Positions 1-64,000 of a DNA stretch of 64,000 bases are shown piece after piece. A program made the translations under genes and the position numbers. Position 1 is the stretch's first letter, and every line of letters starts with the position of its first letter. This DNA is from Squalus acanthias (lineage: Eukaryota). The stretch spans positions 22,818,001 through 22,882,000 of the forward strand of contig CM059432.1 of the NCBI GenBank assembly GCA_030390025.1, given 5' to 3'. The notes under the pieces were generated by a model. The model ran no database searches. It was given only the letters and a program-made list of their open reading frames with translations, and was not told the origin of the DNA.

Positions 1-534
1 GCAATAAAGACCAACATGCCATTTGCCTCCCTACTTGCCATTTGCTTGCTGTACCTGCATGCTAACTCTCTCTGTTTCCTGTACGAGGACACCTAAATCT
101 CTCTGAACACCAACATCTAATAGTTTCTCACCATTTTAAAAATATTCTGTTTTTCTATTCTACCTGCCAAAGTGAATAACCTCACATTTCCCCACATTAT
201 ACTCCATCTGCCACCTTATTGCCCACTCATTTAACCTGTCTATATCCCTTTGCAGGCTCTTTGTGTTCTCCTCACAACTTACTTTCCCACCTAGATTTGA
301 ATCATCTGCATACTTGGATACATTACACTCGGTCCCTTAATCTAAGTAATTAATATAAATTATAAATAGCTGAGACCCAAGCACTGTTCCTTGCAGTACC
401 CCACTAGTTACAGCTTGTCAAGCTGAAAATGACCAGTTTATCACCACTCTCTGTTTTCTATCCATTAACCAATCCTCTACCCATGCTAATATATTACCCG
501 CAACCCCATGTGCCCTTATCTTGCATAATAATCT
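1..534 (-). mobile_element. CR1 LINE RT fragment (continues at 8971-9187)
   Basis: Closely resembles the minus-strand CR1 at 29687-31115 (the region encoding VTSGVPQGSVLGP and ISKFADDTK). It resumes at 8971 after the SINE/Tx1 insertion. Confidence 0.85.
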
Positions 535-565
535 AGTGTCAGTTGTCGCTCATTTGGTAGCACTC
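535..565 (+). mobile_element. 5' part of tRNA-derived SINE head (A box), split by the Tx1 insertion
   Basis: gtgtcagttgtcgctcatttggtagcactc matches the SINE head at ~11919 (gtgtcggcttggctcagtgatagcactctc). It continues at 8652. Confidence 0.75.
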
Positions 566-704
566 CTGAGGTGGGAGAGGCTAGGAGTGAGCAGGTGCTG
601 CTGGGTGCTTGATTGCTGCAGGGAGTTGGAATGAGTTTGTAAAAAGTTGGTAGTGGTTTTTTTTTCAGGTTTTAGGGTCTTTTTGGGCTATAAACAACGG
701 CCAC

Positions 705-2231
705 ATGGCTGCTAAGGGGCCTGGAGTGCCAGGCTCCTCAGAGGACAATGTTCCCAGGATGAATTTATTCAGGGGAGAAAATGTTGGGGGAGGGAGAATA
801 AAAGGCCCAAAGATTTGGGCCGGGACACCAGGAGATTTGGAAAAGAAAACACAGTGGTGGTTCTGTGTAAGGATAAGGAGATATGAGTTTGGGATATTAT
901 CCAAGCGATACATGAGGACTGTGGCAAGGGTAGCTGATTTGCCTGACGACCAAAGCCGAATGTTGGGTTCAAGATGACGGTCAGTGGCCGAGAGGAGGTG
1001 GAAAGACTTTTACTGAGTTTGAAGGTTGGAGATGAGTTGGAGGTATCTCTGCTATATTCTGAAGGGGTGGTGATCTCATTCTTAAACCTGCTGGTTTATA
1101 TTGAGGACGATGAGCTAATAAAAAAGTTGGAGTCGTGGGACATTAAAATTTGCTCAGCAATAAAGAGGAGATACTATCCAGGAATGAGGGTAGCAGATGG
1201 AACCTGCTATATAAAAGTGCGGTTCCCAGAAGGGGTGAAGTCATTGCCGTATAGCATGAAATTCAAGACAATGGAAGGAGTGCAGTACTTCTGGGTACTG
1301 CATGATGACCAGGTGAAGGTTTGTTATTATTGTCTTGGACACGATCATCTTGTAAGAGGCTGTCCAGACTTGTACTGTTATAACTGCAGCGAGTCTGGAC
1401 ACATCGCTTGGAGCTGCAAGGCGGAGAGCTCTGAGGTGTGTCACAAAGGCCCCGCCCACTGTGAGTGTGAGGCAGAAGGATGCCCCTTGAGAGATGAGGA
1501 GGTGGGAGAAGGAGCAGGAAGTGTGAGTGGAGTGGCCGGAGGAGCGGAGCAGGCAGAGGACACAGCTGGCGAATGGAAGGAGGAGAGCACAGGAAGAGAC
1601 AGAAAATTGTGGAGCAGAGAACAGGATGGAGATGGTGGAAAACACACCAAGTACAGTGGAAAAGGACAAATACAGCGAAGGGTAGCACGGGTCGAGGGCA
1701 GAGTCAAGCCATAATATATCTCAGCTCTTCCTAAAGAATCTGGTGTCCGCGGGGGGAGAGGAGGCAGGAGCGCGTTGTGGGGTAAATGTAAGCACTCTAA
1801 AGAAAGATGGGGAGTCAGACATCTCAGGGAGCATGAGGGGGCAAGATAAGGAGAGGGTGCAAGAAGCAGGTGCCTTAAAGGGGCAGCAGGACAGGAGCGG
1901 GGAGACAAAGACACCAGAAAGGGGCAAGATAGGTGAAGATGTGCCATTGTCCCAGAGAGAGAAGAAACGGGGAGCAAGGATCAGTGGTGGAGATGAGGCC
2001 AAAGGGAGCGGCACTGTTGGAGAAACCGTGATAGCAGGAAGACTCTCTAAGGGAGATTATGTATCGGATGGGGAGAAGGGACGGGAGGTTACAGAAGAGC
2101 TCGAGAGGGAGTCAGATGGGGGACAGAGACATGGAAGTGGGGGGTTGGGGTGGCATTGCGTGGAAAGGGAAAGGTTAGTGAGGGGCAGAAGGAGGGAGCA
2201 GGGGCAGCTCTTCGGCCCAAATCCAATGTAA
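705..2231 (+). pseudogene. Tx1 ORF1 (gag-like, CCHC zinc knuckles), frameshifted
   Basis: ORF 974-1714 contains CYYCLGHDHLVRGC, CYNCSESGHIAWSC and a VKSLPYSMKF motif, followed by a charged low-complexity tail. The frame is broken over several ORFs. Confidence 0.8.
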
Positions 2232-2400
2232 GGAAAAGGCTGAAACTGCAGGGAAGGTTCAAACAGAAGGTGAAAAAGAGCCGGAGGCTGTAGGAGAAAG
2301 CAACAGCAGCCCGAAAAGTTGGGAAGGAGCATGAGAGAAGGAAAGGGTTGAAGATTAAATGATGGGGGGATTATCAGGCACACTTCCTTTATTAGGAGCC

Positions 2401-5049
2401 ATGATTATATTGGTCTTTATTAATGTGAACGGACTGAGGGGTGAGAAGAAATTACAGCAGTTGTTGCAGTGTTTTAAAGGCACGGACTTGTTGGGCTGGA
2501 TTTTCATTGACCCGTGGAGGTTGGTTTGGAGGCATGTGGGGGGTTAAATTGCAAAAACTGGCGGGCAGGCACAAGCCCGCCTCCATCCCGCCTCCACGCA
2601 ATTTTCATTAAATTGGGTCTGCTGGTCCCGACTCCGTCCCGCCTCTAAGAGGTGGGATAGGCTGTTAAGGCCCTTAACAAGCACTAAATTGCCTCTATAA
2701 TGCCATTTTGAAAGGCCTTTGTAATTTTAACCCTTTTTCTACGTGAAGCACGCCTGTTCTGAACCACGAATGTGAAACCTGGTGGGAGCACAGCTGGCTG
2801 GCTAGCTGGCTGGCTGAGGAGGAGACATATCTGGATGGATGGATGAGGAGGAGACATATCTGGGAGTGGTGGTGCAAAAATATCTGGGAGCAGACTTAGG
2901 GCTGCTGCTATTCATTTTGCATCCAGGTCCTCTCACAGCAAAGGCCAGGCAGTCTTTGAAGACCTTCAATGCAGCAGCAATGATGACATCATCAGAGGCG
3001 ACTTTCAGACTGAAAACACTAATTGGTTCATGGGTTCCCACATGCTGGAACTCAATTGCCCAATTAGGTGAAAATCGCATCAATCTCCCACATCCAATTG
3101 CAGTCGGGTGGATAACACGAAAAGTGGATGACACGACCCCAACCCGCCCCAGTATCAAAATCCAGCCCATTGTGTCTGCAAGAAACCTTTTGGGATGAGA
3201 ATATCCTAGAAAGAGTTTGCAAGGTTTGGAAGGGAGAGGTGTTTGCAAGTTGCACAAACAAAAGCTGTAGAAGGGTGGCTGTTTTGGTGAGTCCGTCCAT
3301 AAAAGAGAACGTTGCCTTGGTGGACAAGGACACTGAGGGGAGATTTTTACGGCTAAAGGTAAAAATGGAGGAATTTAATTGCGATCTCTTTAATATCTAT
3401 GCATCGAACGACCATTGCAAGTGTCGCGAGTTTTTTGGTGGTTATTCACAGAAGTGGGAGAGGTGGAATACCCTTGTATAGTGGTGGATTTTAATGTATT
3501 TTTATCTCAGATGGACATTTCAGCCCAGATGACCTTTAAGGATGATAACTCCAGAGGGATGATTGTAAAAATGATGGCAAATTTAAATTTGAGGGACTTA
3601 TGGAGGGATCGGAACCCCATAAAAAGGAAGTTCTCCAGAAGAGGTTGGGTGGGTGATATTTTAAAACAGAGCCGAATAGATTTTGTGTTAATGTGGGAAG
3701 GGTTCAGTTCTGAGGTGATGGAGATTTATTATAAAAAGTATTTTTTAGTGACCACTTGGCTTTGGTTCTTAGAATTAGGAACAGCAGAGTTAAGATCGGT
3801 CCAGGGGTGTGGATTTTAAACAATCAATACCTGAAAGAAATTGCTTATAAAGAAGGGATTTTAAATATAATAAAGAATGCTTGGACGGAACCTTTATTCT
3901 TGAACGAAAGGAGGGTTTGGTGGGACAATTTCAAAAATGAGGTAAAAGTTCTTTTGGTACATTATGGGAGAGAGAGAGCGGCAGCTAAACGGCGTCAAGA
4001 AGAGAATATAAACAGAAGGTTTACGGATATCTGTAAAGCAGTTGACGGAGGGAATAAGGGAGCAGAGACTAAGTGGGTGGTTTTAAAGGAAGAGTGGGAA
4101 TTGTTGCAAGCTGAAAAATGCAAGGGTGCCATTCTCTGTGCAAAGGCTAAAGATGCATTGGAGGGAGAAAGATGCACTAGATATTTTCTAGAGAAAGAGA
4201 AGCTGCGACAGAGATTATCATTAAATGGAGAGTTGAAGTTTGGGGAGAAGATCATTAATGAAAGTTGGGAGATTTTGGAGACAGCTAGTAGCTTTTATCC
4301 AGACTTATATACAAAAGAAGACATTTCCAAATTGGCGATGGAGAAGGTTAATGCTTTTATTGAAGAGGGTTTAAAGGAGGATGAGAGAAGCATGTGTAAC
4401 AAAGAAGTAGGATTAGTGGAAATAAAAGTAGCAATAAGTGGAATGAAGGGCAGGGGGTGGGTAACGGGGGGGGGGGGGAGTACAATGGACTAAGTGCAGA
4501 ATTTTATAAAGGATTTTTAGTCCATTGCTCTTAGGGGTTTTTAAGGAGATTAAAATTGAGGGAAGCCTGGCCCCATCTATGAGGAGAGGTATCATAAGTT
4601 TAGCTTATAAAAATAAAGGGGATAGAAGGGATCTAAAGAATTGGAGGCCCATCACATTATTAAATGTGGATTATAAGATCTTGACAAGGGTTATGGCAAA
4701 TCGTATGAAGGAGGTGATGCCGCAGATATTTTTGCCCTCTCAGTCCTATGGAGTCATAGGCCGGACATCGCAGACTCTCTGGTATCAATCCAAGATGTGA
4801 TAGAGCTCATGGAAGAGAGTGGGAGGGAGGCTTATGTATTAAAGATAGATCAAGAGAAAGCCTTTGATAGGGTCTCTCATGAGTTTTTATTGATGGTTTT
4901 GGAAGCATTTGGTTTTGGGAAAAATTTAATTGAGTGGATAAGGATTTTTTATTCAAACATATTTACCTGTGTTAAATGTAATGGATTTTTATCCAAATAT
5001 TTTCAGATACAGAGGTCAGTGAGACAGGGTTGTCCCCTTTTCCCATTGT
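2401..5049 (+). pseudogene. Tx1 ORF2: APE endonuclease and N-terminal half of RT, disrupted
   Basis: Motifs INVNGLR, LCLQETF, NIYASN, DFN, SRIDFV, PGVWILN, KNWRPITLLNVDYKIL, DQEKAFDRVSHEFL and VRQGCPL. Split by the MITE at 2493-3168 and by frameshifts. Confidence 0.88.
2493..3168. mobile_element. PIF/Harbinger MITE family A, copy 1
   Basis: TIR GGGCTGGATTTT...AAAATCCAGCCC. Near-identical to 13911-14656 and 23107-23798. Flanks are gtt/att (imperfect 3-bp TSD). Confidence 0.88.
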
Positions 5050-7322
5050 TGAGAAGTCGCACAACACCAGGTTATAGTCCAACAGTTTTATTTGAAATCA
5101 CAAGCTTTCGGAGCGGCTGCTCCTTCGTCAGGCGAAGTAAAGGAATACAAATCGACAAAGCATATATAGATAGAGAACAATGCATGTGAAGCGTACAATG
5201 GCAGACGACTACATTTAATCCTCCTGACTGCCTTTTGTCACACCTCGGCAGATTAACAATCAGGTCAGCCAGGAAGGCACCACATCAAAGACATAGCAAG
5301 ATACAACTGAGACAATGAGGTGGGGTTACAGGGGGTCTAATGAGTCAAAAGCTGCAGTCAGTATGGAAAACGATAAACTTTAAAAAAATTACTTATTTTT
5401 ACTGGAAATCACATCTGAACAAGCCAACGATGACTCGAGTCTGGATGACTCTACGTCATGTATCGTGACATGAACCCAAGATCACGGTTGAGGCCGTCCT
5501 CATGGGTGCGGAACTTGGCTATCAGTTTCTGCTCGATGATTTTGCGTTGTCGTGTGTCTCTAAGGCCGCCTTGGAGAACGCTTACCCGCAGATCCGAGAC
5601 TGAATGTCCTTGACTGCTGAAGTGTTCCCCGACTGGGAGGTAACAATCCTGCCTGGCAATTGTTGCGCGGTGTCCGTTCATACGTTGTCTCAGTGTCTGC
5701 ATGGTCTCGCCGATGTACCATGCCGCGGTGCATTCTTTCCTGCAACGTATCAGGTAGACAACGTTGGCCGAGTCACATGAGTATGTACCATGTACCTGGT
5801 GGGTAGTGTCCTCACGTGTGATGATGGTATCTGTGTTGATGATCTGGCATGTCTTGCAGAGGTTGCCGTGGCAGGGTTGTGTGGTGTCGTGGTCACTGTT
5901 ATCCTGAAAGCTGGGTAATTTGCTGCGAACGATGGTACTTCTGAGGTTAGGTGGCTGTTTGAAGGCAAGTAGTGGAGGCGTGGGGATGGCCTTAGCGAGG
6001 TGTTCGTCGTCATCGATGACATGTTGAAGGCTGCGAAGAACATGGTGTAGTTTCTCTGCTCCGGGGAAGTACTGGACAACGTAGGGTACCCTGTTGGTTG
6101 TGTCCCGTGTTTGCCTTCTGAGGAGGTCTATGCGATTTTTCGCTGTGACCCGTCGGAACTGTCGATCGATGAGTCGAGCGTCATATCCCGTTCTTACGAG
6201 GGCGTTTTTCAGCGTCCGTAGGTGTCCATCGCGTTCCTCCTCGTCTGAGCAGATCCTGTGTATTCGCAGGGCTTAGCCATAGGGGATGGCTTCTTTAACG
6301 TGGTTAGGGTGGAAGCTGGAGAAGTGGAGCATCGTGAGGTTGTCCGTGGGCTTGCGGTAGAGTGAAGTGCTGAGGTGTCCGTCTTTGATGGAGATTCGTG
6401 TGTCCAGGAATGAAACCGATTCTGAGGAGTAGTCCATGGTGAGTTTGATGGTGGGATGGAACTTGTTGATGTTATCGTGTAGTCTTTTCAGTGATCCTTC
6501 GCCGTGGGTCCAAAGGAAGAAAATGTCGTCGATGTATCTGGTGCACAGCGTTGGCTGGAGGTCCTGTGCAGCGAAGAAGTCTTGCTCGAACTTGTGCATG
6601 AAGATGTTGGCGTATTGGGGTGCGAATTTGGTCCCCATGGCAGTTCCGTGTGTTTGGGTAAAAAACTGGTTGTCGAAGGTGAAGACTTTGTGGTCAAGGA
6701 TGAAGCGGATGAGTTGTAGGCTGGCGTCTGGAGATTGGCTGTTGTTGGTGTTGAGTACTGAGGCTGTCGCAGCGATGCCGTCATCGTGGGGGATACTGGT
6801 GTAGAGTGCCGATACGTCCATCGTGGCGAGGAGTGTTCCTGGTTCAACTGGTCCGTGGGTGCTGAGTTTCTGTAAGAAGTCTGTGGTGTCGCGGCAGAAG
6901 CTGAGGGTTCCCTGTACGATGGGTTTCAGGATGCCCTCGACGTATCCACAGACAACCTCACGATGCTCCACTTCTCCAGCTTCCACCCTAACCACGTTAA
7001 AGAAGCCATCCCCTATGGACAAGCCCTGCGAATACACAGGATCTGCTCAGACGAGGAGGAACGCGATGGACACCTACGGACGCTGAAAAACGCCCTCGTA
7101 AGAACGGGATATGACGCTCGACTCATTGATCGACAGTTCTGACGGGCCACAGCGAAAAATCGCATAGACCTCCTCAGAAGGCAAACATGGGACACAACCA
7201 ACAGGGTACCCTACGTCGTCCAGTACTTCCCCGGAGCGGAGAAACTACGCCATGTTCTTCGCAGCCTTCAACATGTCATCGATGACGACGAACACCTCGC
7301 TAAGGCCATCTCCACGCCTCCA
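5050..7322 (-). mobile_element. Penelope-like element (RT + GIY-YIG), 5'-truncated with an inverted segment at 6948-7322
   Basis: RT motifs TMDVSALYTSIPH, GTAMGTKFAPQYANIFM, RYIDDIF and SFLDT. GIY-YIG region NVVYLIRC..WYIGETMQTLRQRMNGHR, ending HEDGLNRDLGFMSRY. 6948-7322 is an inverted copy of ~5972-6346. Confidence 0.9.
5098..5135 (-). ncRNA. Minimal type-I hammerhead ribozyme motif in the Penelope 3' region
   Basis: Minus strand reads UCGC-CUGACGA-A-GGAGC-AGCC-GCUCC-GAAAGCUU-GUGA: conserved core, stem II, stem I and a palindromic AGCU in place of stem III. Confidence 0.7.
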
Positions 7323-7762
7323 CGGTCTTATGTGAGATTGGGTGAGTGGAGGTGGCAACTTGCCCAGTGTGTGGGACACGGGATGAGACTCTGTCCCATT
7401 AACTGGTGTTATGTCTGCAGTTAAAGGATTTTAAGTACTATGTTCGACAGTTGTGTGAGATTTTTTTGCTGGGTGGGGACCGAAGAGCGAGAATGGGAAT
7501 CCCGTGGGACACAATTTTGAGATGGGGATTACAGGGGAGTCTGCTTGAGTCTAGCGGAGCATCAATTAATTTAATGTTCAGTTTGGCTCGATTCGTGATT
7601 GTGCAAAGAAGGATTGCCCTTTTTTTTAAGGGGAGGAGAATAAACCTAAAAGAGTATTTTAAATATGAGCTAAAAGATCATTATAAGCCTCTGTGGATGT
7701 TTTATTCAGAAAGGAATTTAAAAATAGTGTTTTATGATCAATTATTAAAGTACAATAGATAG
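7323..7762 (+). pseudogene. Tx1 ORF2 C-terminal zinc-finger region
   Basis: Translates ATCPVCGTRDETLSH*LVLC (CX2C..H..C) followed by INLMFSLARFVIVQRR, typical of the Tx1/L1 ORF2 end. Confidence 0.7.
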
Positions 7763-7911
7763 TATATGTTATGGGAGCAAAATTAAACTTCAGGTTTTGA
7801 TGTTAATATGTGGTGGAGGAATGGCTGTGCAGAGTGGCGGAATGGATTAGTATGATACAATGGAATGATTACGATGTTGTAAATGTTTTTAATGTTCAAT
7901 AAATAATATTA

Positions 7912-8638
7912 TGGGCCAGAAATTCGGGTCAGAGGCTTCCCGCGGGCACCAGCCCCCGACCTGCACGCCTGCCGTTGTGCTGTGGGCCCACATGGGATTC
8001 CGATCCTGGGCCTCCTCCAGCTGCCGGTGTGCAGTGCTCGCGTATCTCAGCGGCGAAGCTAGTTCGCACCGTCCCCTGGGATCACGTGGTCCATGGGGAG
8101 CCAATCGGAGCAGGGAATCTCCATTCATAGATTTGACAGGAAGACCTGTCAAATCTATGAATAGAGATCGGCCCCAAAAGCTAAGTAAAACTTCAAATAA
8201 TTTTTTTTTTAAATCACATTTTTAAAATAACTATAAATTACATAAGTTAACTATTTTAAACAAAAATTTAAATTGTTGAAAAAATTAATTAAAGTTTTTC
8301 TTTAAAGTATTTAAAAATGATAAACCTGTGGAAAAAATGTTTCAATTTTACTTAATTCACCTCTTACCTTGTTAAAAGCAGGCCTTGCGCCTGCTTTTTC
8401 CACGCGCAGCTGCTAGGGACTTACTCGCATGGAGAAACCTGTAAAAAAAGCAGAAGTTCCATGTCTACGCGCTGCCTCTCCAGCGCATGCGTATGACCTG
8501 TGAACCCCTTCCTTCAAGGGAACGGAAGTTCCGGTTTCCAGTGCATGCGCAGTGCATGCACGAAACCGGCACTTTTGTTGGCCTTACGGGTGAGTACACA
8601 GCGCGTACTCACCCGTGGGGACCCGAATTTCTGGGCCA
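7912..8638. mobile_element. PIF/Harbinger MITE (family C) inserted just before the Tx1 A-tail
   Basis: 19-bp TIR TGGGCCAGAAATTCGGGTC / GACCCGAATTTCTGGGCCA (1 mismatch), TTA on both sides, AT-rich core. Confidence 0.85.
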
Positions 8639-8648
8639 TTAAAAAAAA

Positions 8649-8970
8649 GTAGGTAGCACTCTCGCTTCTGAGTCAGAAGGCTGTGGGTTCAAGGTGGATG
8701 TAAAAGATCCCATAGCGCTATTTCGAAGAAGAGCAGGGGAGTTATCCCCAGTATCCTGGCCAATATTTATCCCTCAATCAACATAACAAAAACAGATTAT
8801 CTGGTCATTATCACATTGCTGTTTGTGGGAGCTTGCTGTGCATAAATTGGCTGCCGCGTTTCCCACATTACAATAGTGACTGCACTCCAAAAGTACTTCA
8901 TTGGTTATAAATCGTTTTGAGACATCCGGTGGTCATGAAAGGCGCTTTATAAATGCAAGTCTTTCTTTTA
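8649..8970 (+). mobile_element. tRNA-derived SINE (remainder), Deu-domain-like with L2-type tail
   Basis: B-box-like gggttcaag, body gtggatgtaaaagatcccat...gttatcccc...ggccaatatttatccctc, tail aggcgctttataaatgcaagtc. A related minus-strand copy lies at 61270-61660. Confidence 0.75.
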
Positions 8971-9187
8971 TCCTTTTATGTGGTACCTTATTAAATTCCT
9001 TTTGGAAACCCAAATATACTGCCTCCACTGGTTCCCCTTTATCTACCCTGCTAGCTACATCCCCAAAAAACTCTAATAAATTTGTTAAACATGATTTCCC
9101 TTTCATAAAACCATGTTGGTTCTGCCTGATCGTATTATGATTTTCGAAGTGCCCTGTTACAACTTCCTTAATAATGGATTCCAGCAG
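8971..9187 (-). mobile_element. CR1 LINE fragment, continuation of 1-534
   Basis: Resembles the QHGFMKGKSCLTNLLEFF-coding region and joins colinearly with 1-534. Confidence 0.8.
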
Positions 9188-12700: not shown

Positions 12701-13910
12701 ATCGAACTGCTTACAAGATCAAGGTCTCATGCAGAGAGTTTGAGCAGTTAGGTGTCAGATAAAAAAGCAGTACCTCCAGATTAGTAACCTTAGAATTACT
12801 CCTGGACTAGTTAGGAAGAAGCAGATTAGAAATATCAATGCATGGCTTGACAGAAGGCGTGCAATAGAGTTTTCAGATTTCTAGAGCATTTATCAAAATT
12901 TTCTGTTCTCCGGAAGGGTTACACACGGAAAACACTATGGGGCAGAAATTCATCAGTGCCCGGGTGCATGGGTGGCAATGCGGCCGCAATGTGTACTCAA
13001 AGCGGGAGGCTCAAGGCTAGCCGGCCGGGAATTGGACCCCTGACCGCTGTCAGCACCTCCACAGGCAGCTCACCTATTTGAACAAATTGAATACCAAATT
13101 GCTTGCCTCACAGGCAGCAACGCAAAGCTAAGCCTTGGGGGGGATAGAGGGTCAGCGGGGAGTGATCAGGCTATTGTTGAGTCAGGGGAGCCCTCCAGTG
13201 GGGTGGGAGGGAAAGAAAAACATAAACCTTTAGTTTTAATTGTTTCTTAGTTTTATATTTGTATTGTCTATATCGCAAGCATCCCTATCTGGCTTTCTTA
13301 ACAGATATTTCTTTGTTTTTTCCATTCTCCCATTCTCTCTCTGGATTTAACCTTGGCTGTGGGCCAAGCTAACACTCAGCTTGAGTTCCCTCCTCACCAG
13401 TCCTACGCACTTATGTTACATCTTTTGGCAGATGGAGAAAAAGAGAAGCTGTTTGGAGAGGAGCCAAGCTCTCTGATCTTGAAGCTGTTGCCATTCCCAT
13501 TTTATACTGGGAAGTAGAACAGCCACCTTGCTCCCAATTGTGATTCACATAATTATTTTTTCCAATTTACTTCTACTTCCTCCAAACGAGCTCAGCCAGT
13601 TTTCTTTCCCCAAGAGAAACAGGCTGTGGTGACCTCACCTCAATTTCTTCTATTGCCCATATTAATTGTCCATTCAATACTGCTCCACCATGTTGACTAG
13701 TCTGGGCATTTACTCGAAATTTCTACCTAGATCATTTTATCCAGAGCTCTACTTTAAAATAAGATATCTGCTTCTCCAAGAGAGTCGTACAAAAACAAAA
13801 TCTTGTATTAAAGAGAATAAATGGTTGTTAAAGTGCTTGTCACTAAAATTACTGCAGAGAACAAGTTAATACTTGATTAGTTAAAGGGGACTCATGTATA
13901 CAGGCACTGT

Positions 13911-14656
13911 GGGCTGGATTTTCATTGACCCGTGGAGGCGGGTTTGGAGGCGTGTGGGGGGGTTAAAATTGCGAAAACTGGTGGGCGGGCACAAGCCCGC
14001 CTCCATGCAATTTTCATTAAATCATGTCTGCTGGTCCCGACTCCGTCCCGCCTCTAAGAGGCAGGATAGGCTGTTAAGGCCCTTAACAAGCACTAAATTG
14101 CCTCTATAATGCCATTTTGAAAGGCCTTTGTGATTTTAACCCTTTTTCTACGTGAAGCATGCCTGTTCTGAACCACGAATGTGAAACCTGGTGGGAGCAC
14201 AGCTGGCTGGCCGGCCGGCCGATCTGGGAGTGGTGATGGATGGATGGAATGAATAGCTGGGAGTGGTGGTGGATGGATGGAATGAATATCTGGGAGTGGT
14301 GGTGGATGGGAGACATATCTGGGAGTGGTGGTGGATGGGAGACATATCTGGGAGTGGTGGTGCAAAAATATCTGGGAGCAGACTTAGGGCTGCTGCTGCT
14401 CATTTTGCATCCAGGTCCTCTCACAGCAAAGGCCAGGCAGTCTTTGCAGACCTTCAATGCAGCAGCAATGATGACATCATCAGAGGCGACTTTCAGACTG
14501 AAAACACTAATTGGGTCATGGGTTCCCACATGCTGGAACTCAATTGCCCAATTAGGTGAAAATCGCATCAATCTCCCACATCCAATTGCAGTCAGGTGGA
14601 TAACACGAAAAGTGGATGACACGACCCCAACCCGCCCCAGTATCAAAATCCAGCCC
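13911..14656. mobile_element. PIF/Harbinger MITE family A, copy 2
   Basis: 12-bp TIR, perfect TGT TSD, expanded internal GGGAGTGGTGGT minisatellite. Confidence 0.92.
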
Positions 14657-16071: not shown

Positions 16072-16370
16072 GGGCTCGATTTTGTCATGGGGTGGGCTGG
16101 GGTCGTGTCATCTGCTTTTCGTGTTAGCCACCCGACTCCAATTGGATGTGGGAGAATTATTTGATTTTCCCCTAATTGGGCAATTGAGTTCCAGCATGTG
16201 GGAACCCATGACCCAATTAGTTTTTTCAGTCTGAAAGTTGCCTCTGATGATGTCATCATTGCTGCTGCATTTAAGGTCTGCAAAGATTGGGAACCTTTTG
16301 GCCTTTGCTGTGAGAGGGACCTGGAGGCAAAATGAGCAGCAGGAGACCTAAGTCTGCTCCCAGATTTTTT

Positions 16371-16407
<37 letters not shown>

Positions 16408-16825
16408 CCTCCAGGCTCCAAAGTTCCACAACAATGGTTATGACTGCTAAAAGTTCCCCCAGAATGATGATTCATCAAATCTCCTTCTTAATGGTGGACC
16501 TGCAGCTGATAGTCAGCAATTCAAGTGTGCTACCGCTAGGTTTCACCGTCGTGTTTCAGAGGAGGCGTGCATCACGTCGGAAAAGTGTTAAAATCAGAAA
16601 GGCCTCTCAAAATGGGATTATAGAGGCAATTAAGTGGTTCTTAAGGGCCTTAAGGGCCTATCCCGCCTCTTGGAGGCGGGACGGAGACAGGATCAGAAAC
16701 AACGCATTTGGGAAAATTGCTCGGAGGTGGGATGGAGGCAGGGTCAGGCCTGCCCGCCATTTTTGCAATTTTAACACCCCACACGCCTCCATTCCCGCCT
16801 CCTTGGGCCTGGCAAAATCGCGCCC
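16072..16825. mobile_element. PIF/Harbinger MITE family A, diverged copy in opposite orientation
   Basis: TIR GGGCTCGATTTTG / CAAAATCGCGCCC, ATA TSD, internal similarity to the other copies in reverse, (ACT)n microsatellite near 16380-16406. Confidence 0.85.
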
Positions 16826-17487
16826 ATAGTGTACGTAAGATTGCTTCACCAAATTGTTTACTAGCCTATTGTGCTGCCTGAGTGCCCTCTCTTGGATAAA
16901 AATGGTGTGGAGATGCCGGTGTTGGACTGGGGTGGACAAATGTGAGAAGTCGCACAACACCAGGTTATAGTCCAAGGGGGAAAAATTCAGTTGGTTGCGC
17001 CTCCCGTTAGCGCCTTAAGAGGGCGCTAATGGGGCGTTAAGCCGCTAACGCCCGGGCGCAGCGCTGTTTGCGCCGCTCGAGAACTTAACTTGAGATTGTG
17101 CGGCGGCGCTAAAACTTACCGCTGCGACCACCTGCGCGCGCAGATTGTGACGTCATTCCATGGTGCAACGCCCTTGGGGCGCCCCGGAGCGGAAATTGAG
17201 TGGCGCCCCCTGCCTTACCGCCTGGCGCTTCCAACGACCGGAAGACTGGAACGTTATCAATCGGTGTGGGGCTGGGGGGGGCGCTATTTAAAGGGGGCCT
17301 CTTCCTGTCTTTTTCTGTGGTCGACATTTATGCACCACTCGTTCTGAGAGAGAGAGAGAGATTCGGAGAGAGAGAGAGAGAGACTTCTACATTGACTCAA
17401 CGCTTTGTGAGGTAGTTTGGCCTAGTTCATCCTAACTTTGCTGCTACTTTAGTTGCTGTACCTCATTACTTTTCTGGCAAAGAGAAT

Positions 17488-18942: not shown

Positions 18943-20927
18943 CTACTTTTTGCCCTTCGAGGGTGATCTCCTTCCCTTGCGCACTTCCCCCCTTCTAACC
19001 CTACTGCTCCTCCGTAATGGGACCTCAGTGGCTGCAGCAAGGCTGGTGGAAGGCTGCTGCTCGTCAGACCCTGACACTGCAGATGCCCCTGAAGGACGGC
19101 CTCGAGCACTTCTGGGCCTGGAGGGCCCGGCTGCAGACTGCACCAACTCTGCATGGGCGGCAGCAGTCTGTCCTACAGGCGGTGGCAAGTGCAGTGGAGA
19201 AGTGACAGTGTTGGCAGCAGGAATGCTGTCATCGTGAGAGAGGACAGCAACTCCCTGCTCGCCCGACACACTGGCACTCCCACGGGGCAGCACTTCAGCA
19301 TCCGGAGCAATTTGCCGGAGAACAGATTGCTGGCCTGCTGCGGCGCGGTGACAGCCCCGGGGACATGTGCACGAACCATCGAGGATGGCAGCAGTCAGTG
19401 CTCGCGTGGCCTCAATCTGAGTCTGCATGAGAGCAGTCTCAGATGGGTTCCTGGCAGCCAGTGACTGAATTGCAGCACTAAGCTTTAGTGTGGCATCCGC
19501 CTGTGCTACAGCGAAGTGCTCCACACTCCTTGCCAGTGCCTCAATGCATTCGGGCACCCTTCCCACTGCACCCATGAGCTCAGTGTGCATGCCCACCGCC
19601 TGGCTGTTCATTTCTGCAATCAGCCGCTCCTCCTCTGCGTCCATTGCAGTAGGAGTGTCTGGCATACTCTCCCTCTGGGGAGAAGGCTCCCGTTCTTCCC
19701 TCCCCCCCCCATGGCGTTGCTGCAGCCCGCTGGGTCCTGGAGCTTCACCATCATCAGCCCCTTCCCCCCTGCTCCCCTCCGGGGAAGGCGTGTTCCCAGT
19801 GTGGCCATGGGCTTCCTCGGGAGAGGGTGGCACTGATGCTCCGGCTTCCTCTTCCTCCTCAGCTGCAGCATCACTCCCAGTGGCAGCTTCAGGGACCATC
19901 TCCTCAGCTGGTGAATCACCATCTGAAAGCAGGGAGGTACAAGAGTGGCTTTAGCGTGAGGACAGGGTGGCAGTAAGGGAGGAATAAGTGCAGCGAGTTA
20001 GCAAGTTGGATTGAAAGTGTCAAAGGCTGGTATTGTGAGGGACAAGTGGAAGGACAGAGGACAAAAAGGTGATGACCTTACCATTGCTGTCCACAACGGG
20101 GTCGGCATCCCCAGTGGCGACGGGACCGATCACCCGGCTTGCCACAATCCTGTGGACGCGCTCCTCCAGATCGCTGAGGGGTTGCAGCTGAAGCCGCCCT
20201 CCACCCGTCCGTTGCTGCTGTCTCCGATTATGAGCCAGCTTAGCCTGCAAGAAAAAGGACAGCATCTGAGTAAATATACAGCCATGGTCTTGCCTGATGT
20301 GCCTCCCATAGGTGAATAGCCCTTACAATATGCAGCCATGGTCTTGCCTGATGTGCCTCCCATAGGTGAATAGCCCTTACAATATGCAGCCATGGTCTTG
20401 CCTGATGTGCCTCCCATAGGTGAATAGCCCTTACAATATGCAGCCATGGTCTTGCCTGATGTGCCTCCCATAGGTGAATAGCCCTTACAATATGCAGCCA
20501 TGGTCTTGCCTGATGTGCCTCCCATAGGTGAATAGCCCTTACTGTATGCAAAGTGTGGAATGTGTGTGTGTGTTTGATGAAAGGGCCATAGGTGTTGCAT
20601 GAGTGTTGTGCATTGGGGTTTTAAGACCCTCTGGCCATATAGTGAGGTTGAGATGGAGGGATGGAGAGGTATTGAGAAAAAGCCACTCACCCTGACGACC
20701 CGAGTGAGGTTGTTGAATTTTTTGCGGCACTGAACATGGGTCCTGGGCACCATGCTCCTGGAGGAGACGCTCTGAGCCACCTCCCTCCACACTCTTCTGA
20801 ACTCGCGTGGCAAAGGCCTCCTGCCACTCTCCGGGAACAGCATGCATCGTCTGCGCTCCACTGCGCCAACCAGAGCATCCAAGGCCCGCTCGGTGAAGCG
20901 ATGAGCGCGTTCTCTCACCCTCTCCAT
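18943..20927 (-). CDS. Harbinger Myb/SANT-like DNA-binding protein, 3 exons (20927-20691, 20244-20082, 19922-18943), 459 aa
   Basis: Exon 1 reads MERVRERAHRFTERALDAL..WREVAQ..RTHVQCRKKFNNL. GT-AG junctions are AGG|GTGAGT, TTGCAG|GCT, AATG|GTAAGG and TTTCAG|AT. Phases are consistent (237+163+980=1380 nt) with no internal stops. C-terminus is basic. Confidence 0.85.
20279..20542. repeat. 54-bp perfect tandem repeat (~4.9 copies) in intron 1 of the Myb gene
   Basis: Unit cagccatggtcttgcctgatgtgcctcccataggtgaatagcccttacaatatg starts at 20279, 20333, 20387, 20441 and 20495. Confidence 0.95.
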
Positions 20928-22959: not shown

Positions 22960-24220
22960 TCTGTCTGCATCCATCACTACCCTAAGTTCCATGTTGACAC
23001 ATTTCTACCTGGATTTTTGAGAGGAGACCTGTCTTCGCCACCTCTGCTTCTGAAGACACACCACCACAGAGTTGTGCTATCTGCTACGAAATGATTTGCA
23101 CACAAGGGGCTGGATTTTCATTGACCCGTGGAGGCGGGTTTGGAGGCGTGTGGGGGGTTACAATTGTGAAAACTGGCGGGCAGGCACAAGCCCGCCTCCA
23201 TCCCGCCTCCACGCAATTTTCATTAAATCATGTCTGCTGGTCCCGACTCCGTCCCGCCTCTAAGAGGCGGGATAGGCTGTTAAGGCCCTTAACAAGCACT
23301 AAATTGCCTCTATAATGCCATTTTGAAAGGCCTTTGTAATTTTAACCCTTTTTCTACGTGAAGCACGCCTGTTCTGAACCACGAATGTGAAACCTGGCGG
23401 GAGCACATTTGGATAGCTGACTATCAGTGGCTGGCTGGCTGAGCTGGGAGTGGTGGTGAATGGGAGACATATCTGGGAGTGGTGGTGCAAGGGAGACATA
23501 ATCTGGGAGTGGTGGTGCAAAAATATCTGGGAGCAGACTTAGGGCTGCTGCTGCTCATTTTGCATCCAGGTCCTCTCACAGCGAAGGCCAGGCAGTCTTT
23601 GCAGACCTTCAATGCAGCAGCAATGAGGTGACTTTCAGACTGAAAACACTAATTGGGTCATGGGTTCCCACATGCTGGAACTCAATTACTCAATTAGGCG
23701 AAAATCGCATCAATCTCCCACATCCAATTGCAGTCGGGTGGATAACACGCAAAGTGGATGACACGACCCCAACCCGCCCCAGTATCAAAATCCAGCCCAA
23801 GATCTCTATCAGGCACAGCTCTTCTTGTAGAAGCTTTCATGCTATTGGATCTTTCCAAGACAACCAGGGACATATGCTACATCAGGCAGTCTATAGTGCA
23901 GAGCTGTATCAATAAAGTGATTGATGATGTGCTTGTAAGGGGCTACAGCTTGACCACTTCACCTGCAGAAAGGAGGCTGGACAGGACGCAGAGTTTTCTG
24001 GTAAACTTTCCTGAAGTGTAAGGTTCCACAGATGGTGCAATTGAGGCCAACAGGGTTCCTCATATGAATCATATGGCCTACATACAAAGAAATATTTGTA
24101 TTTTGGCCCTATCATTCAGATCTTCAAGTGGTCTTTGGCCACTGAAATAACATTATGTATGATCTTGGCCATTAGCCAGGAAGCAGCCATGATTCCATCA
24201 GTAAACAGCAGTCAATGGTG
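22960..24220 (+). pseudogene. Decayed Harbinger transposase interrupted by MITE A copy 3
   Basis: ETCLRHLCF*RHTTTELCYLLRNDLH|RSLSGTAL.. aligns by eye with ELCLRRLRFSKEVVTELCHLLQPDLQ. A PGSSHD-like motif (ccaggaagcagccatgat) lies near 24176. Confidence 0.6.
23107..23798. mobile_element. PIF/Harbinger MITE family A, copy 3
   Basis: 12-bp TIR, perfect AAG TSD. Confidence 0.92.
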
Positions 24221-38026: not shown

Positions 38027-38572
38027 GATATTTTATTTTTTTCCAGGCCCTCACAAGTGTGGAATTTTTTTAAATCTTCCTCTGTTTCCTTTTCTCCTAC
38101 AATCCATGATTTTTTAAAAGCCAAATTTGGCAACACCTAATCACTAGTTTTTCTCATCTTCTCTCCTCTTTTGAATTTTGATGCTGTCCTGCACTACAAA
38201 CTTGACCTTTCACTTGGTCATCTCAATCATTCTAAAAAAAACTCCATACAATACCATTGAGCCATCTAGGCAGCGATAAGCTCAAAATAAATTTGAGGTA
38301 ATACATTTTGGTAGGAAGAATAGGGAGGTCACTTATCACTTGGAGGGTGCGAGTCTAGGTGGGGTAGAGGAACAAAGGGATCTCGGAGTACAAATACACA
38401 AATCACTAAAAGTTGCGCCACAGGTTTAGCAAGACCATAAAGAAAAGCAAACCAAGCACTAGGGTTTATTTCTAGAGGGATAGAATTGAAAAGTAGGGAA
38501 GTTATGCTAAACCTGTATTGAAATGAGAAGTCGCACAACACCAGGTTATAGTCCAACAGATTTATTTAAAAT

Positions 38573-38608
38573 TACAAGCTTTCGGAGCTATCGCCCCTTC
38601 TTCAGGTA
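38573..38608 (-). ncRNA. Minimal hammerhead ribozyme motif
   Basis: UAC-CUGAAGA-A-GGGGC-GAUA-GCUCC-GAAAGCUU-GUA. Confidence 0.7.
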
Positions 38609-39249
38609 CAGTTACAATGAGTGAATCTACAAAAGTTCACAGAATATAAACACAGAAAATGCAGAGATACAATCTTTCCTTACATCAAAGACACACCAAG
38701 AGCACAGCCAAGACAATGAGATGTGTCCCAGGGGGTCCAACGTGTCAAATCCTGCTGTCTGTAGCCGATCTCTCTCCATATCCCTTCCTCTCTCTCCGTC
38801 TTTTTTGGGGTTTGTTTTTTGGGTTTGTTTTTTTGTGTTTGTTTTTTAAAAACTGGAAAGACAGACAACGATGTCAAGTCACGTTCTGTAGCGTGACATG
38901 AACCCGATATCCCTATTGAGGCCGTCCTCATAAGGGATATCAATAGGGATATCGGGTTCATGTCACGCTACAGAACGTGACTTGACATCGTTGTCTGTCT
39001 TTCCGGTTTTAAAAAACAAACACAAAAAAACAAACACAAAAAACAAACCCCAAAAAAGACGGAGAGAGAGGAAGGGATATGGAGAGAGATCTGCTACAGA
39101 CAGCAGGATTTGACACGTTGGACCCCCTGGGATACATCTCATTGTCTTGGCTGTGCTCTTGGTGTGTCTTTGATGTAAGGAAAGATTGTATCTCTGCATT
39201 TTCTGTGTTTATATTCTGTGAACTTTTGTAGATTCACTCATTGTAACTG

Positions 39250-39285
39250 TACCTGAAGAAGGGGCGATAGCTCCGAAAGCTTGTA
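39250..39285 (+). ncRNA. Minimal hammerhead ribozyme motif
   Basis: tac-ctgaaga-a-ggggc-gata-gctcc-gaaagctt-gta. Confidence 0.7.
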
Positions 39286-40120
39286 ATTTTAAATAAATCT
39301 GTTGGACTATAACCTGGTGTTGTGCGACTTTCTCATTTTTGTCCACCCCAGTCCAACGCCAGGCATCTCCGCATCAAAACCTGTATTGAACCTTGGTTAG
39401 ACCACACTTAGAGTACTGCGTGCAGTTCTGGTTGCCATATTATAAAAAGGATATAAAGGCACTGGAGAGGGTGCAGAGAAGATTTACAAGGATGATACCA
39501 GAAATGCGAGGGTATACATATCAGGAAAGGATGAACAGGCTGGGTCTCTTTTCTCTTGAAAAAAGAAGGTTGAGGGGTGACCTAATAGAGGTCTTTAAAA
39601 TTATGATAGGTTTTGACAGAGTGGATACAGAGAGAATGTTACCACTTGTGGGGAAGAGCATGACTAGAGGCCATCAATATAAGATAGTCACCAAGAAATC
39701 CAACAGGAAATTCAGAAGAAACTTCTTCACCCAAAGAGTAGTGAGAATGTGAAACTCACTACCACAGGGAGTGGTTGAAGCGAATAGTATCGATGCATTT
39801 AAGGGGAGGCTGGACAAGCATATGAGGGAGAGGGGAATAGAGGGTTATGCTGATAGATTTAGATGAGGAAAGACGGGAGGAGGCTCGAGTGGAGCATAAA
39901 CGCCAGCATGGACTGGTGGGCCGAATGGCCTGTTTCTGTGCCTTATAGCCTATGTAATCCTATGTAATCATATCAATATTTATGTTTAATATAAGGATTT
40001 ATGATTCTGCATTCCCAGCAGGAAGCTGCATTCAAAACAGTGAGAGAAATGGCACTACACTGTTGTAGCCCTATCTCTAGTCCACATTCCATCTGAGCAT
40101 GGCTCCCTGTTAGAATTTAA

Positions 40121-62980: not shown

Positions 62981-64000
62981 TGTGGAAAGAGCAGCGGAGT
63001 GGGACTAATTAGATAGCTCTTTCAAAAACCTGGCACAGGCACAATACGCTGAATAACCTTTTTCTGTACTGTATAATTTTATGATCCTGTAGTGGGGTTT
63101 GAACCCACAAACATCTGACTCAGAGGTGAGAATGCTACTACTGAGCCACAGGATTTCATAAGAAGCTTGTGAGCAATGTGCTGAGAGAGAATAAATTAAG
63201 GCCAGGAAAAGCCACGGCTATTTCAGCGTAATCCTGCTGTAACTTCGGTGGCCGACAGTGACTGGACCCCAATTTCCATATTAAAAAGGGCCTATCACCT
63301 GAAACAGGCGGGCGATTTGGACACCCAACAGTAGGCCCCTTTCAAAATGGAGCTGGCTGCGTCGTCGGTGTTAACGGGGCGCTAAGGCTACTGACCCCAT
63401 TTTGAGGCTCTTATCACCCCATTAACGCCAGGCAAAGGCAGTGAAAACTGACCTCAATTAGCTTAATTGTGAATTAAAGCTAAGAACCAGTCTGAAGCCC
63501 ATTTCACCTTCTTTGTCTAAGGGACGGGAGAACACTTATGAAACGAGATAAGGGGAAATAATCAATAAACAGCTGATACAGTATTATTGAAAAAAATGTT
63601 AGACCTGACCACAGTGTCACGTACACATAAGCTATGGTTCAATGTCCCCAAGAAATCCTTGGCCATTATCAAAATCAATTATTCAGTGCAAGTGTTGAAA
63701 ACATTATGTCACTTTGGACTAATGGGTTTAGTTATTTTAGGGAAAGGGTGAAAGTGCTATTTTTCCAATGTGAACTTGTCAGTGGAAAATGACAGCTACG
63801 AAAGAAAAAGATAAAGCATAAAAGCCTCCCGGTTTCACATCTGCTCATGCAGTGCAGTAATTTCTCAAGTGACATTTCGCCAAACAGTCAGATCTGCACC
63901 GTTCACAGTCCTGCCTGCAGTCTATTAAGTTTGACCTGATGATTCTCATGTAATGGTTCACCAGCAAATAGCAGAGAGATTGGCTTCACTGAGTGAATAT

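What the first reader, a model, noticed from the sequence alone, without database searches (positions are those of the whole stretch)
535..8661. Tx1-clade LINE inserted into the tRNA-derived Pol III promoter of a SINE: candidate SINE/tRNA-targeting retrotransposon
Seen: the Tx1 element is bounded by a GGTAGCACTC duplication at the 3' edge of the SINE A box, and removing it restores a SINE head like the one at ~11919. Established: the Tx1 clade includes sequence-specific families (Tx1L/Tx2L into DNA transposons, Keno into U2 snRNA, Mutsu into 5S rDNA, Dewa into tRNA arrays). Inference: this family's APE endonuclease may target this abundant SINE head or its parent tRNA, making it a parasite of a SINE. 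A single copy cannot prove specificity.
Basis: partly seen in the sequence, partly recalled or inferred. Interest (0 to 1): 0.72.

Follow-up and report, generated by a model that had tools for sequence, protein, structure and literature searches.

The report
LINE inserted in a SINE promoter
A decayed Tx1-type jumping gene in a shark-like genome sits inside the tRNA-like promoter of a short repeat (a SINE), and it is about even odds whether its family aims at that spot, a known habit with a new target, or landed there by chance.

Summary
A decayed Tx1-type LINE (566-7912) splits a SINE head. The exact 10-nt duplication extends to about 14 nt (12 of 14 alike) and starts inside the A box, not at its 3' edge. 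The SINE lies in a CR1-type LINE whose halves rejoin, and three later insertions interrupt the Tx1, so nesting is ordinary here.

Targeting is unproven. No genome was held and the window has no second copy. Contigs of four public runs show an abundant family. One contig of another organism joins the same tail to the same SINE position (1 of 12 rows shown, 622 hidden). It may be an orthologue. No such joint is among the 15 top joints, but counting was saturated.

I give 0.5 to a family preferring this site and 0.38 to chance. Tx1 families aimed at other transposons and small-RNA genes are published; my searches found no paper on a SINE target. This scan noted Tx1-like LINEs hitting tRNA-headed SINEs in other genomes (unchecked here).

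The parts
1..532 (-). Outer host: CR1-type LINE reverse-transcriptase fragment, left part
   Evidence: Minus-strand frames read YADD and a CR1-type motif (the CR1 label of the motif is recalled); 3-523 aligns at 74% to the copy at 30.3-30.8 kb
533..565 (+). SINE head, 5' half, with the A-box region
   Evidence: Matches the loose-end consensus of 576-659 empty SINE heads per run and three other heads in the window
552..565 (+). Left target-site duplication (exact core 556-565)
   Evidence: 12 of 14 letters alike with 8648-8661
566..2490 (+). Tx1-type LINE: 5' UTR, frameshifted ORF1 (RRM-like part plus CCHC knuckle, best piece 947-1714), start of ORF2 endonuclease (motif at 2422)
   Evidence: zf-CCHC E 0.0032, below the Pfam cut-off; Atlas neighbours are CCHC and ZCCHC3-RBD clusters at 0.93-0.94; motif positions
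2491..3170 (.). Nested non-autonomous element with terminal inverted repeats (MITE1)
   Evidence: Copies at 13910, 23107 and 16072-16826; inverted ends seen at the junctions
3171..5049 (+). Tx1-type ORF2: rest of the AP endonuclease and first half of the reverse transcriptase, broken by several frameshifts and stops
   Evidence: tblastn maps residues 50-677 of a full-length relative here; RVT_1 E 4.6e-11; endonuclease motifs at 3176, 3392, 3487, 3673, 3747
5050..7323 (-). Nested Penelope-like element with a 378-nt inverted duplication; stands where about 470 ORF2 residues are missing
   Evidence: RVT_1 E 7.1e-09; HTH_animal and GIY-YIG Atlas clusters at 0.96-0.97, GIY-YIG on 22-35% of members; inverted arms; gap in ORF2
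7324..7912 (+). Tx1-type ORF2 C-terminal part, 3' UTR and AATAAA at 7898
   Evidence: tblastn residues 1151-1284 at 7340-7747; covered at high depth in 4 of 4 runs
7913..8637 (.). Nested element with terminal inverted repeats (MITE3) inside the Tx1 tail
   Evidence: Inverted ends; high depth in 4 of 4 runs, and one X16 contig bridges 7909 to 8645 without it
8638..8647 (+). Remainder of the A-rich tail
   Evidence: Sequence
8648..8661 (+). Right target-site duplication (exact core 8652-8661)
   Evidence: Loose ends before 8648 in 4 of 4 runs
8662..8968 (+). SINE remainder: rest of the head, an internal deletion at 8692/8693, body and tail
   Evidence: 81% to the copy at 61545-61268; loose ends before 8692 and behind 8968
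8972..9186 (-). Outer host CR1-type LINE, right part, colinear with 1-532
   Evidence: Left flank ends at position 638 and right flank starts at 647 of the same reference copy

Best explanation
A Tx1-type LINE family prefers the A-box region of an abundant tRNA-headed SINE of cartilaginous fish, and this is an old, dead copy at that site. Shown: a Tx1-type element with AP endonuclease and reverse transcriptase, in the same orientation as the SINE, bounded by an about 14-nt duplication. Inferred from the standard target-primed model: the endonuclease nicked the bottom strand at the GCTC/AG step (tRNA-equivalent positions 13/14), the poly(A) RNA was copied from that nick, and the top strand was cut about 14 nt downstream. 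This parts the A box from the B box and should silence that SINE copy. Inferred and unproven: the endonuclease reads this sequence, so the family uses very numerous, dispensable SINE heads as safe landing sites.
For: The duplication and the rejoined SINE. With 4 heads in 64 kb, a random insertion lands in a 70-nt head with probability about 0.4% and in the 14-nt zone about 0.09%. Many Tx1 families show target preference, including for other transposons (PMC4494074). One X16 contig (organism J) joins the same tail at 7909 to the SINE at 8645; its depth is 60.4, while 4 of the 8 long X16 pieces shown have depth 26-32, which hints at more than one copy. X16 holds 0.31 of the window's words, hardly above the 0.25-0.30 of five small runs (110-255 million letters), so a close orthologue is not evident. 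The bottom strand at the nick is not T-rich. Dada DNA transposons use the same tRNA 8-13 site, so this step is a target used before.
Against: Only one locus is seen directly, and it was picked because it looked interesting; the posterior runs from 0.19 to 0.88 as the assumed prior goes from 0.1% to 3%. No Tx1-to-SINE joint is among the 15 best-supported joints (1058 hidden), although MITE3-to-SINE joints are. Only 1 of 12 rows with letters between is such a junction (622 hidden), and no loose-end row among 24 shown carries a Tx1 tail. The X16 junction could be the orthologous locus before MITE3 arrived; its tail resembles the window's. Nesting is common here: the SINE sits in a CR1 and the Tx1 carries three insertions. 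No close relative with a known target was found: best 63% over the RT piece, and a long branch in the tree.
Confidence: 0.5

Rival explanations
1. Chance nesting. A weakly specific or differently targeted Tx1-type family with hundreds to thousands of copies hit a SINE head once; the X16 junction is the same ancestral event in a related species.
For: SINE-like sequence covers at least 1.7% of the window. The family's summed depth is 0.35-3.6% of the SINE's, so some chance hits per genome are expected. Five nested events lie in 9 kb. No aggregated Tx1-to-SINE joint is in the top 15. The copy differs from the majority letter at 26 listed places in 589 nt, 25 of them in all four runs, so it is old enough to be shared between species.
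Against: The chance per insertion is low, 0.09-0.4%. The X16 junction depth is about twice that of several long single pieces. At 4 of the 26 listed places no X16 contig carries the window's letter, so an orthologue, if present, must have split early or be unassembled there.
Confidence: 0.38
2. The true target is the A box of real tRNA genes, and the SINE head is an occasional decoy.
For: The nick maps to the D-stem/D-loop step of the tRNA model. Shark genomes are rich in tRNA loci (bioRxiv 10.1101/2025.06.08.657570). Dada uses this site in tRNA genes.
Against: The family looks too abundant for tRNA genes alone: Tx1 depth is about 1000-9000 times that of long pieces, an inflated upper figure. 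The 3' half of the duplication departs from a tRNA D-arm (weak model score). A tRNA lay in 1 of 60 loci of distant relatives.
Confidence: 0.08
3. The SINE sequence is part of the element (a captured head or an inherited copy of the target), or the join comes from recombination or assembly.
For: Some crocodilian Tx1 families carry U1- or U2-derived heads. Positions 566-582 faintly resemble the next SINE letters.
Against: Both SINE halves and both CR1 halves rejoin in register. The resemblance at 566-582 is not significant: 472-1339 of 5000 random 25-mers score as well.
Confidence: 0.04

Closest known systems
Tx1L in Tx1D (Xenopus laevis); crocodilian Tx1-Mar in Mariner-N4_AMi, Tx1-9_AMi in Harbinger, Tx1-8_Crp and Tx1-4_AMi in LTR elements (PMC4494074, passages and sections 17-18 read)
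   Same: Tx1-type LINE with AP endonuclease sitting in another mobile element with a target-site duplication
   Different: The host is a tRNA-headed SINE promoter; specificity is shown there on many copies and here on one locus plus one ambiguous junction
Keno (U2 snRNA), Mutsu (about 20 nt from the 5' end of 5S rRNA genes), Dewa (spacer of tRNA-Leu arrays) (PMC4494074, PMC5340908, PMC3706591; passages read)
   Same: Tx1-group elements tied to small-RNA-gene sequence; Mutsu also lands near the 5' end of a Pol III unit
   Different: Their targets are functional multicopy genes or spacers, not a dispersed SINE; no tree with these named families could be built
Dada DNA transposons in the tRNA A box, nucleotides 8-13 (PMC3706591, PMC8869645; passages read)
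   Same: One boundary of the duplication falls at the same tRNA-equivalent step, between positions 13 and 14
   Different: DDE transposase, 6-7 bp duplication, real tRNA genes; unrelated enzyme
SacSINE1-type Deu-SINEs of cartilaginous fish (PMC5499810, passages read; supplement not available)
   Same: tRNA-like head, very high copy number (218,294 SacSINE1-CM copies in C. milii)
   Different: Identity of this SINE with SacSINE1 is recalled, not tested against a reference sequence

Membership tests
Tx1 clade (L1 group) | ORF2 with AP endonuclease, reverse transcriptase and C-terminal cysteine-rich part | tested here: met
   Pieces map to residues 50-677 and 1151-1284 of a 1302-aa relative; endonuclease motifs; RVT_1
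Tx1 clade (L1 group) | ORF1 of RRM plus CCHC type, not Transposase_22 (PMC5203782) | tested here: met
   zf-CCHC E 0.0032 (below cut-off), no Transposase_22 hit; Atlas neighbours are CCHC and ZCCHC3-RBD clusters
Tx1 clade (L1 group) | Reverse transcriptase groups with named Tx1 families, apart from vertebrate L1 | tested here: inconclusive
   RT piece scores 104 bits against zebrafish pol-like protein BAC82613 and 33-34.5 bits against human L1 ORF2p. It joins a 40-tip clade with BAC82613, support 0.93, on a long branch (154 of 296 proteins used, no L1 outgroup). That BAC82613 is a Kojima-Fujiwara Tx1-group element is recalled; searches did not confirm it
Tx1 clade (L1 group) | Poly(A) signal, A-rich tail and target-site duplication | tested here: met
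   AATAAA at 7898, A-run to 8648, about 14-nt duplication
Target-specific Tx1 family | More than 20% of copies flanked by the same repeat (criterion in PMC4494074) | tested here: inconclusive
   One locus plus one junction in 12 rows shown; counting saturated; no genome held
Target-specific Tx1 family | Endonuclease cleaves the target in vitro | not testable with these tools
   Needs a bench assay
tRNA-derived SINE (SacSINE1-type Deu-SINE) | tRNA-like head with A and B boxes | tested here: inconclusive
   The 63084-63153 copy aligns along the whole Rfam tRNA model at 16.2 bits, E 0.56, below gathering 29; the 11919 copy gave no tRNA hit
tRNA-derived SINE (SacSINE1-type Deu-SINE) | Short, non-coding, dispersed at very high copy number | tested here: met
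   Peak depth 5.9e6-2.5e7 in 4 of 4 runs and unrelated flanks behind 8968; several copies in the window
tRNA-derived SINE (SacSINE1-type Deu-SINE) | Deu domain and L2-type tail matching SacSINE1 | not testable with these tools
   No reference sequence reachable: supplement not held, sequence words not in the library

The most novel reading that the evidence does not exclude
An abundant Tx1 family shared by several cartilaginous fish inserts almost only at one base inside the Pol III A box of the dominant SINE, cutting at the same tRNA 13/14 step that Dada transposons use. It would be a LINE that parasitises and switches off a SINE it does not mobilise, possibly after shifting from tRNA genes to the far more numerous SINE decoy.
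Probability: 0.3. Interest if true: 0.55.

Novelty: new member of a known kind. Interest (0 to 1): 0.33.

Why it matters
If the family is site-specific, it adds SINE promoters to the known Tx1 targets (DNA transposons, LTR elements, U2, U5, 5S, microsatellites). It would give a short, defined site for studying how an AP endonuclease gains specificity, and a case of convergence with Dada on the tRNA A box. Insertions that split a SINE promoter could also curb SINE activity. If not specific, this is an ordinary nest of five elements, useful only for ordering their ages.

Tried and rejected
Own genome: none held, so the direct flank census could not be run. Second copy in the window: none. Junction pattern (poly(A) signal, gap, SINE A box) in JGI metagenomes: 0 matches. 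SINE-head pattern in viral and prokaryote collections: 0 and 0. These blanks say nothing on targeting, since those collections may hold no shark DNA. Protein-guided locus searches: 0 of 8 and 0 of 161 candidates confirmed. Alignment-guided JGI search: best 80 of 287 loci, at most 49% identical; none of the 80 matched the SINE or the element's 5' or 3' DNA; a tRNA in 1 of 60 scanned; U1, U2 or U5 in 3 of 20 scanned; too distant to bear on this family. ORF1 homologue search: 0 of 187 candidates. Linker-region searches gave only 23-36% relatives. Look-ups of earlier findings by sequence and relatives: nothing. A longer duplication or inherited target copy at 566-582: rejected as not significant, although a 5-letter echo at 566-570 has a chance of about 1.3% taken alone. 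Assigning BAC82613 to a named family: failed. Supplements of PMC4494074 and PMC5499810 could not be read; they may list further Tx1 targets and the SacSINE1 sequence.

Full report
Verdict. Whether the family aims at that site could not be settled. I put it at about even odds.

The duplication. GGTAGCACTC occurs twice in the 64-kb window, at 556 and 8652. A shared word this long arose in 15 of about 2000 random pairs of 100-nt zones. The rejoined site aligns to three other heads, at 11725, 11919 and 63099 (minus strand), with scores 53, 50 and 64, against a best of 31-40 in three shuffled windows. In four public runs, 576-659 contigs each carry the SINE's 5' part as a loose end before 8648. The right-hand copy therefore starts at 8648 and the duplication is about 14 nt, 12 of 14 letters alike. 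On a weak alignment of the 63-kb copy to the Rfam tRNA model (16.2 bits, E 0.56, below gathering), that start is the step from D-stem to D-loop, tRNA positions 13/14. It lies inside the A box, not at its 3' edge. The A-box extent is recalled.

The nest. The outermost element is a CR1-type LINE on the minus strand (the CR1 label is recalled from the motif). Its halves rejoin across the block: 3-523 ends at position 638 and 8972-9186 starts at 647 of one reference copy. Inside lies the SINE (533-565 and 8648-8968), with a deletion at 8692/8693. Inside that lies the Tx1-type element (566-7912). It is interrupted by MITE1 (2491-3170), a Penelope-like element (5050-7323) and MITE3 (7913-8637). The order of events is CR1, SINE, Tx1, then the three insertions.

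The element. ORF1 is frameshifted. Its best piece has a weak zf-CCHC hit and no Transposase_22 hit, and Atlas neighbours of CCHC and ZCCHC3-RBD type. That is the ORF1 type linked to Tx1 in PMC5203782 (passages). ORF2 pieces map to residues 50-677 and 1151-1284 of a full-length relative; about 470 residues are missing where the Penelope-like element stands. Endonuclease motifs are present. The RT piece found 299 relatives among 347 candidates; the best of the 120 listed is 63% identical. It scores 104 bits against zebrafish BAC82613 and 33-34.5 against human L1 ORF2p. In a tree of 154 of 296 fetched proteins (the rest did not span the region) it joins a 40-tip clade with BAC82613, support 0.93, on a long branch; the tree had no L1 outgroup and no named Tx1 family. 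So the element is Tx1-type, has no close relative on record, and is dead.

The family. No genome was held and the window has no second copy. Twenty runs hold part of the region, the best 0.45 of the words. I laid four of them (organisms A, I, J, K; contigs only) on 7324-8975 at 80% likeness. All four cover the Tx1 3' part. Its median summed depth is about 1000-9000 times that of the long pieces shown and 0.35-3.6% of the SINE's. Overlapping short contigs inflate these figures and the tool warns that they are not copy numbers; they do show an abundant family shared by four organisms. The window copy differs from the majority letter at 26 listed places in 589 nt (412 rows hidden over the whole stretch), so it is old.

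The test of targeting. One X16 contig joins the Tx1 tail at 7909 to the SINE at 8645 with seven letters between and no MITE3, at depth 60.4. It is 1 of 12 rows shown in that table, with 622 hidden. Four of the eight long X16 pieces have depth 26-32, which hints at more than one copy. X16 shares 0.31 of the window's words, little above the 0.25-0.30 of five small runs, and at 4 of 26 places no X16 contig has the window's letter. These points lean against a close orthologue but do not exclude one that split early; the similar T-containing tail fits either reading. Against targeting: no Tx1-to-SINE joint is among the 15 top joints (1058 hidden), though MITE3-to-SINE joints are, and none of the 24 loose-end rows shown has a Tx1 tail (5056 hidden). 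The tool reported that counting was saturated, and junction contigs between two high-copy repeats may be too short on the Tx1 side to be called (my inference). The absence is therefore weak evidence.

The odds. With four heads in 64 kb, a random insertion hits a 70-nt head about 0.4% of the time and the 14-nt zone about 0.09%. But the locus was chosen after the fact. For priors of 0.1-3% the head-level posterior runs from 0.19 to 0.88. Adding the ambiguous junction and the missing top joints, I judge 0.5 for a SINE-head preference, 0.38 for chance, 0.08 for tRNA genes as the real target and 0.04 for a captured head or artefact. A faint echo of the target at 566-582 was tested and is not significant.

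Mechanism. Shown: orientation, boundaries, domains. Inferred from the standard target-primed model: a bottom-strand nick at the GCTC/AG step, reverse transcription of the poly(A) RNA from that nick, and a top-strand cut about 14 nt on. The bottom strand there is not T-rich, unlike the mammalian L1 site (recalled). The insertion parts the A box from the B box, which should silence this SINE copy (inferred). Unproven: that the endonuclease reads this sequence.

What is known. PMC4494074 (passages; sections 17 and 18) lists Tx1 targets in piggyBac, Mariner, Harbinger and LTR elements, U2, U5, 5S, satellites and microsatellites, and sets 20% of flanks as the bar for specificity. PMC5340908 (passages) places Mutsu about 20 nt into 5S genes. 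PMC3706591 and PMC8869645 (passages, section 3 of the latter) give Dewa the tRNA-Leu spacer and Dada the tRNA A box at nucleotides 8-13. PMC5499810 (passages) describes SacSINE1-type SINEs; that this SINE is one is recalled, not tested. Also seen as passages: PMC4640811, PMC3747384, PMC5753468, PMC4889948, PMC2684134, PMC13343379 and bioRxiv 10.1101/2025.06.08.657570. Kojima and Fujiwara 2004 and Christensen et al. 2000 were seen only as citations. Searches found no paper on a Tx1 family targeting a SINE. The library lacks most subscription papers and Repbase reports, and two supplements were unavailable.

Earlier notes of this scan. Five notes describe L1/Tx1-like LINEs hitting one site of tRNA-headed SINE-like repeats in other genomes. 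Notes on this genome describe Tx1 families aimed at Penelope ends and a LINE that begins with a SINE-type head. I did not check them, and none matched this element by sequence. They are leads, not support.

Score. A new Tx1-type family with a candidate new target of a known habit, unproven: interest 0.33.

Noticed in passing
window 7913-8637 with 8789-8799 and 8969 (tables 5 and 5c): The end of MITE3 is joined to the SINE at a few recurring positions in several runs, e.g. to 8969 on the opposite strand in 1, 15, 13 and 11 contigs of X1, X15, X16, X19. MITE3 may favour certain AT sites in this SINE.
   Followed up: no
window 5050-7323: The Penelope-like insertion has a 378-nt inverted duplication (5972-6349 and 6946-7323, 97%) and coincides with the loss of about 470 residues of the Tx1 ORF2.
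   Followed up: partly
window 2491-3170, 13910-14656, 16072-16826, 23107-23799: MITE1 family: four copies in 64 kb, 80-90% alike, with an internal 29-33-nt tandem region of varying length.
   Followed up: partly
window 8692/8693: The host SINE copy lacks part of its head and body right after the B-box-like GTTCAAG; 529-672 contigs per run continue differently there.
   Followed up: partly
window 566-570: The first five letters of the element repeat target letters 8668-8672 after a 6-nt gap; could be microhomology at 5' attachment, but the wider resemblance was not significant.
   Followed up: yes
window 38524-39335: Long inverted repeat of Penelope-like terminal sequence (331-nt arms, 98%, 141 nt apart).
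   Followed up: no
window 20219-20550: Tandem array with a 54-nt period, copies 97-99% alike.
   Followed up: no
L015 4818-5150; L018 72-263; L037 5786-6665: Distant L1/Tx1-like elements in metagenome contigs lie beside tRNA-Pro and U1 (L015), U2 (L018), and U2 and U5 (L037): possible small-RNA-gene-targeting families.
   Followed up: no
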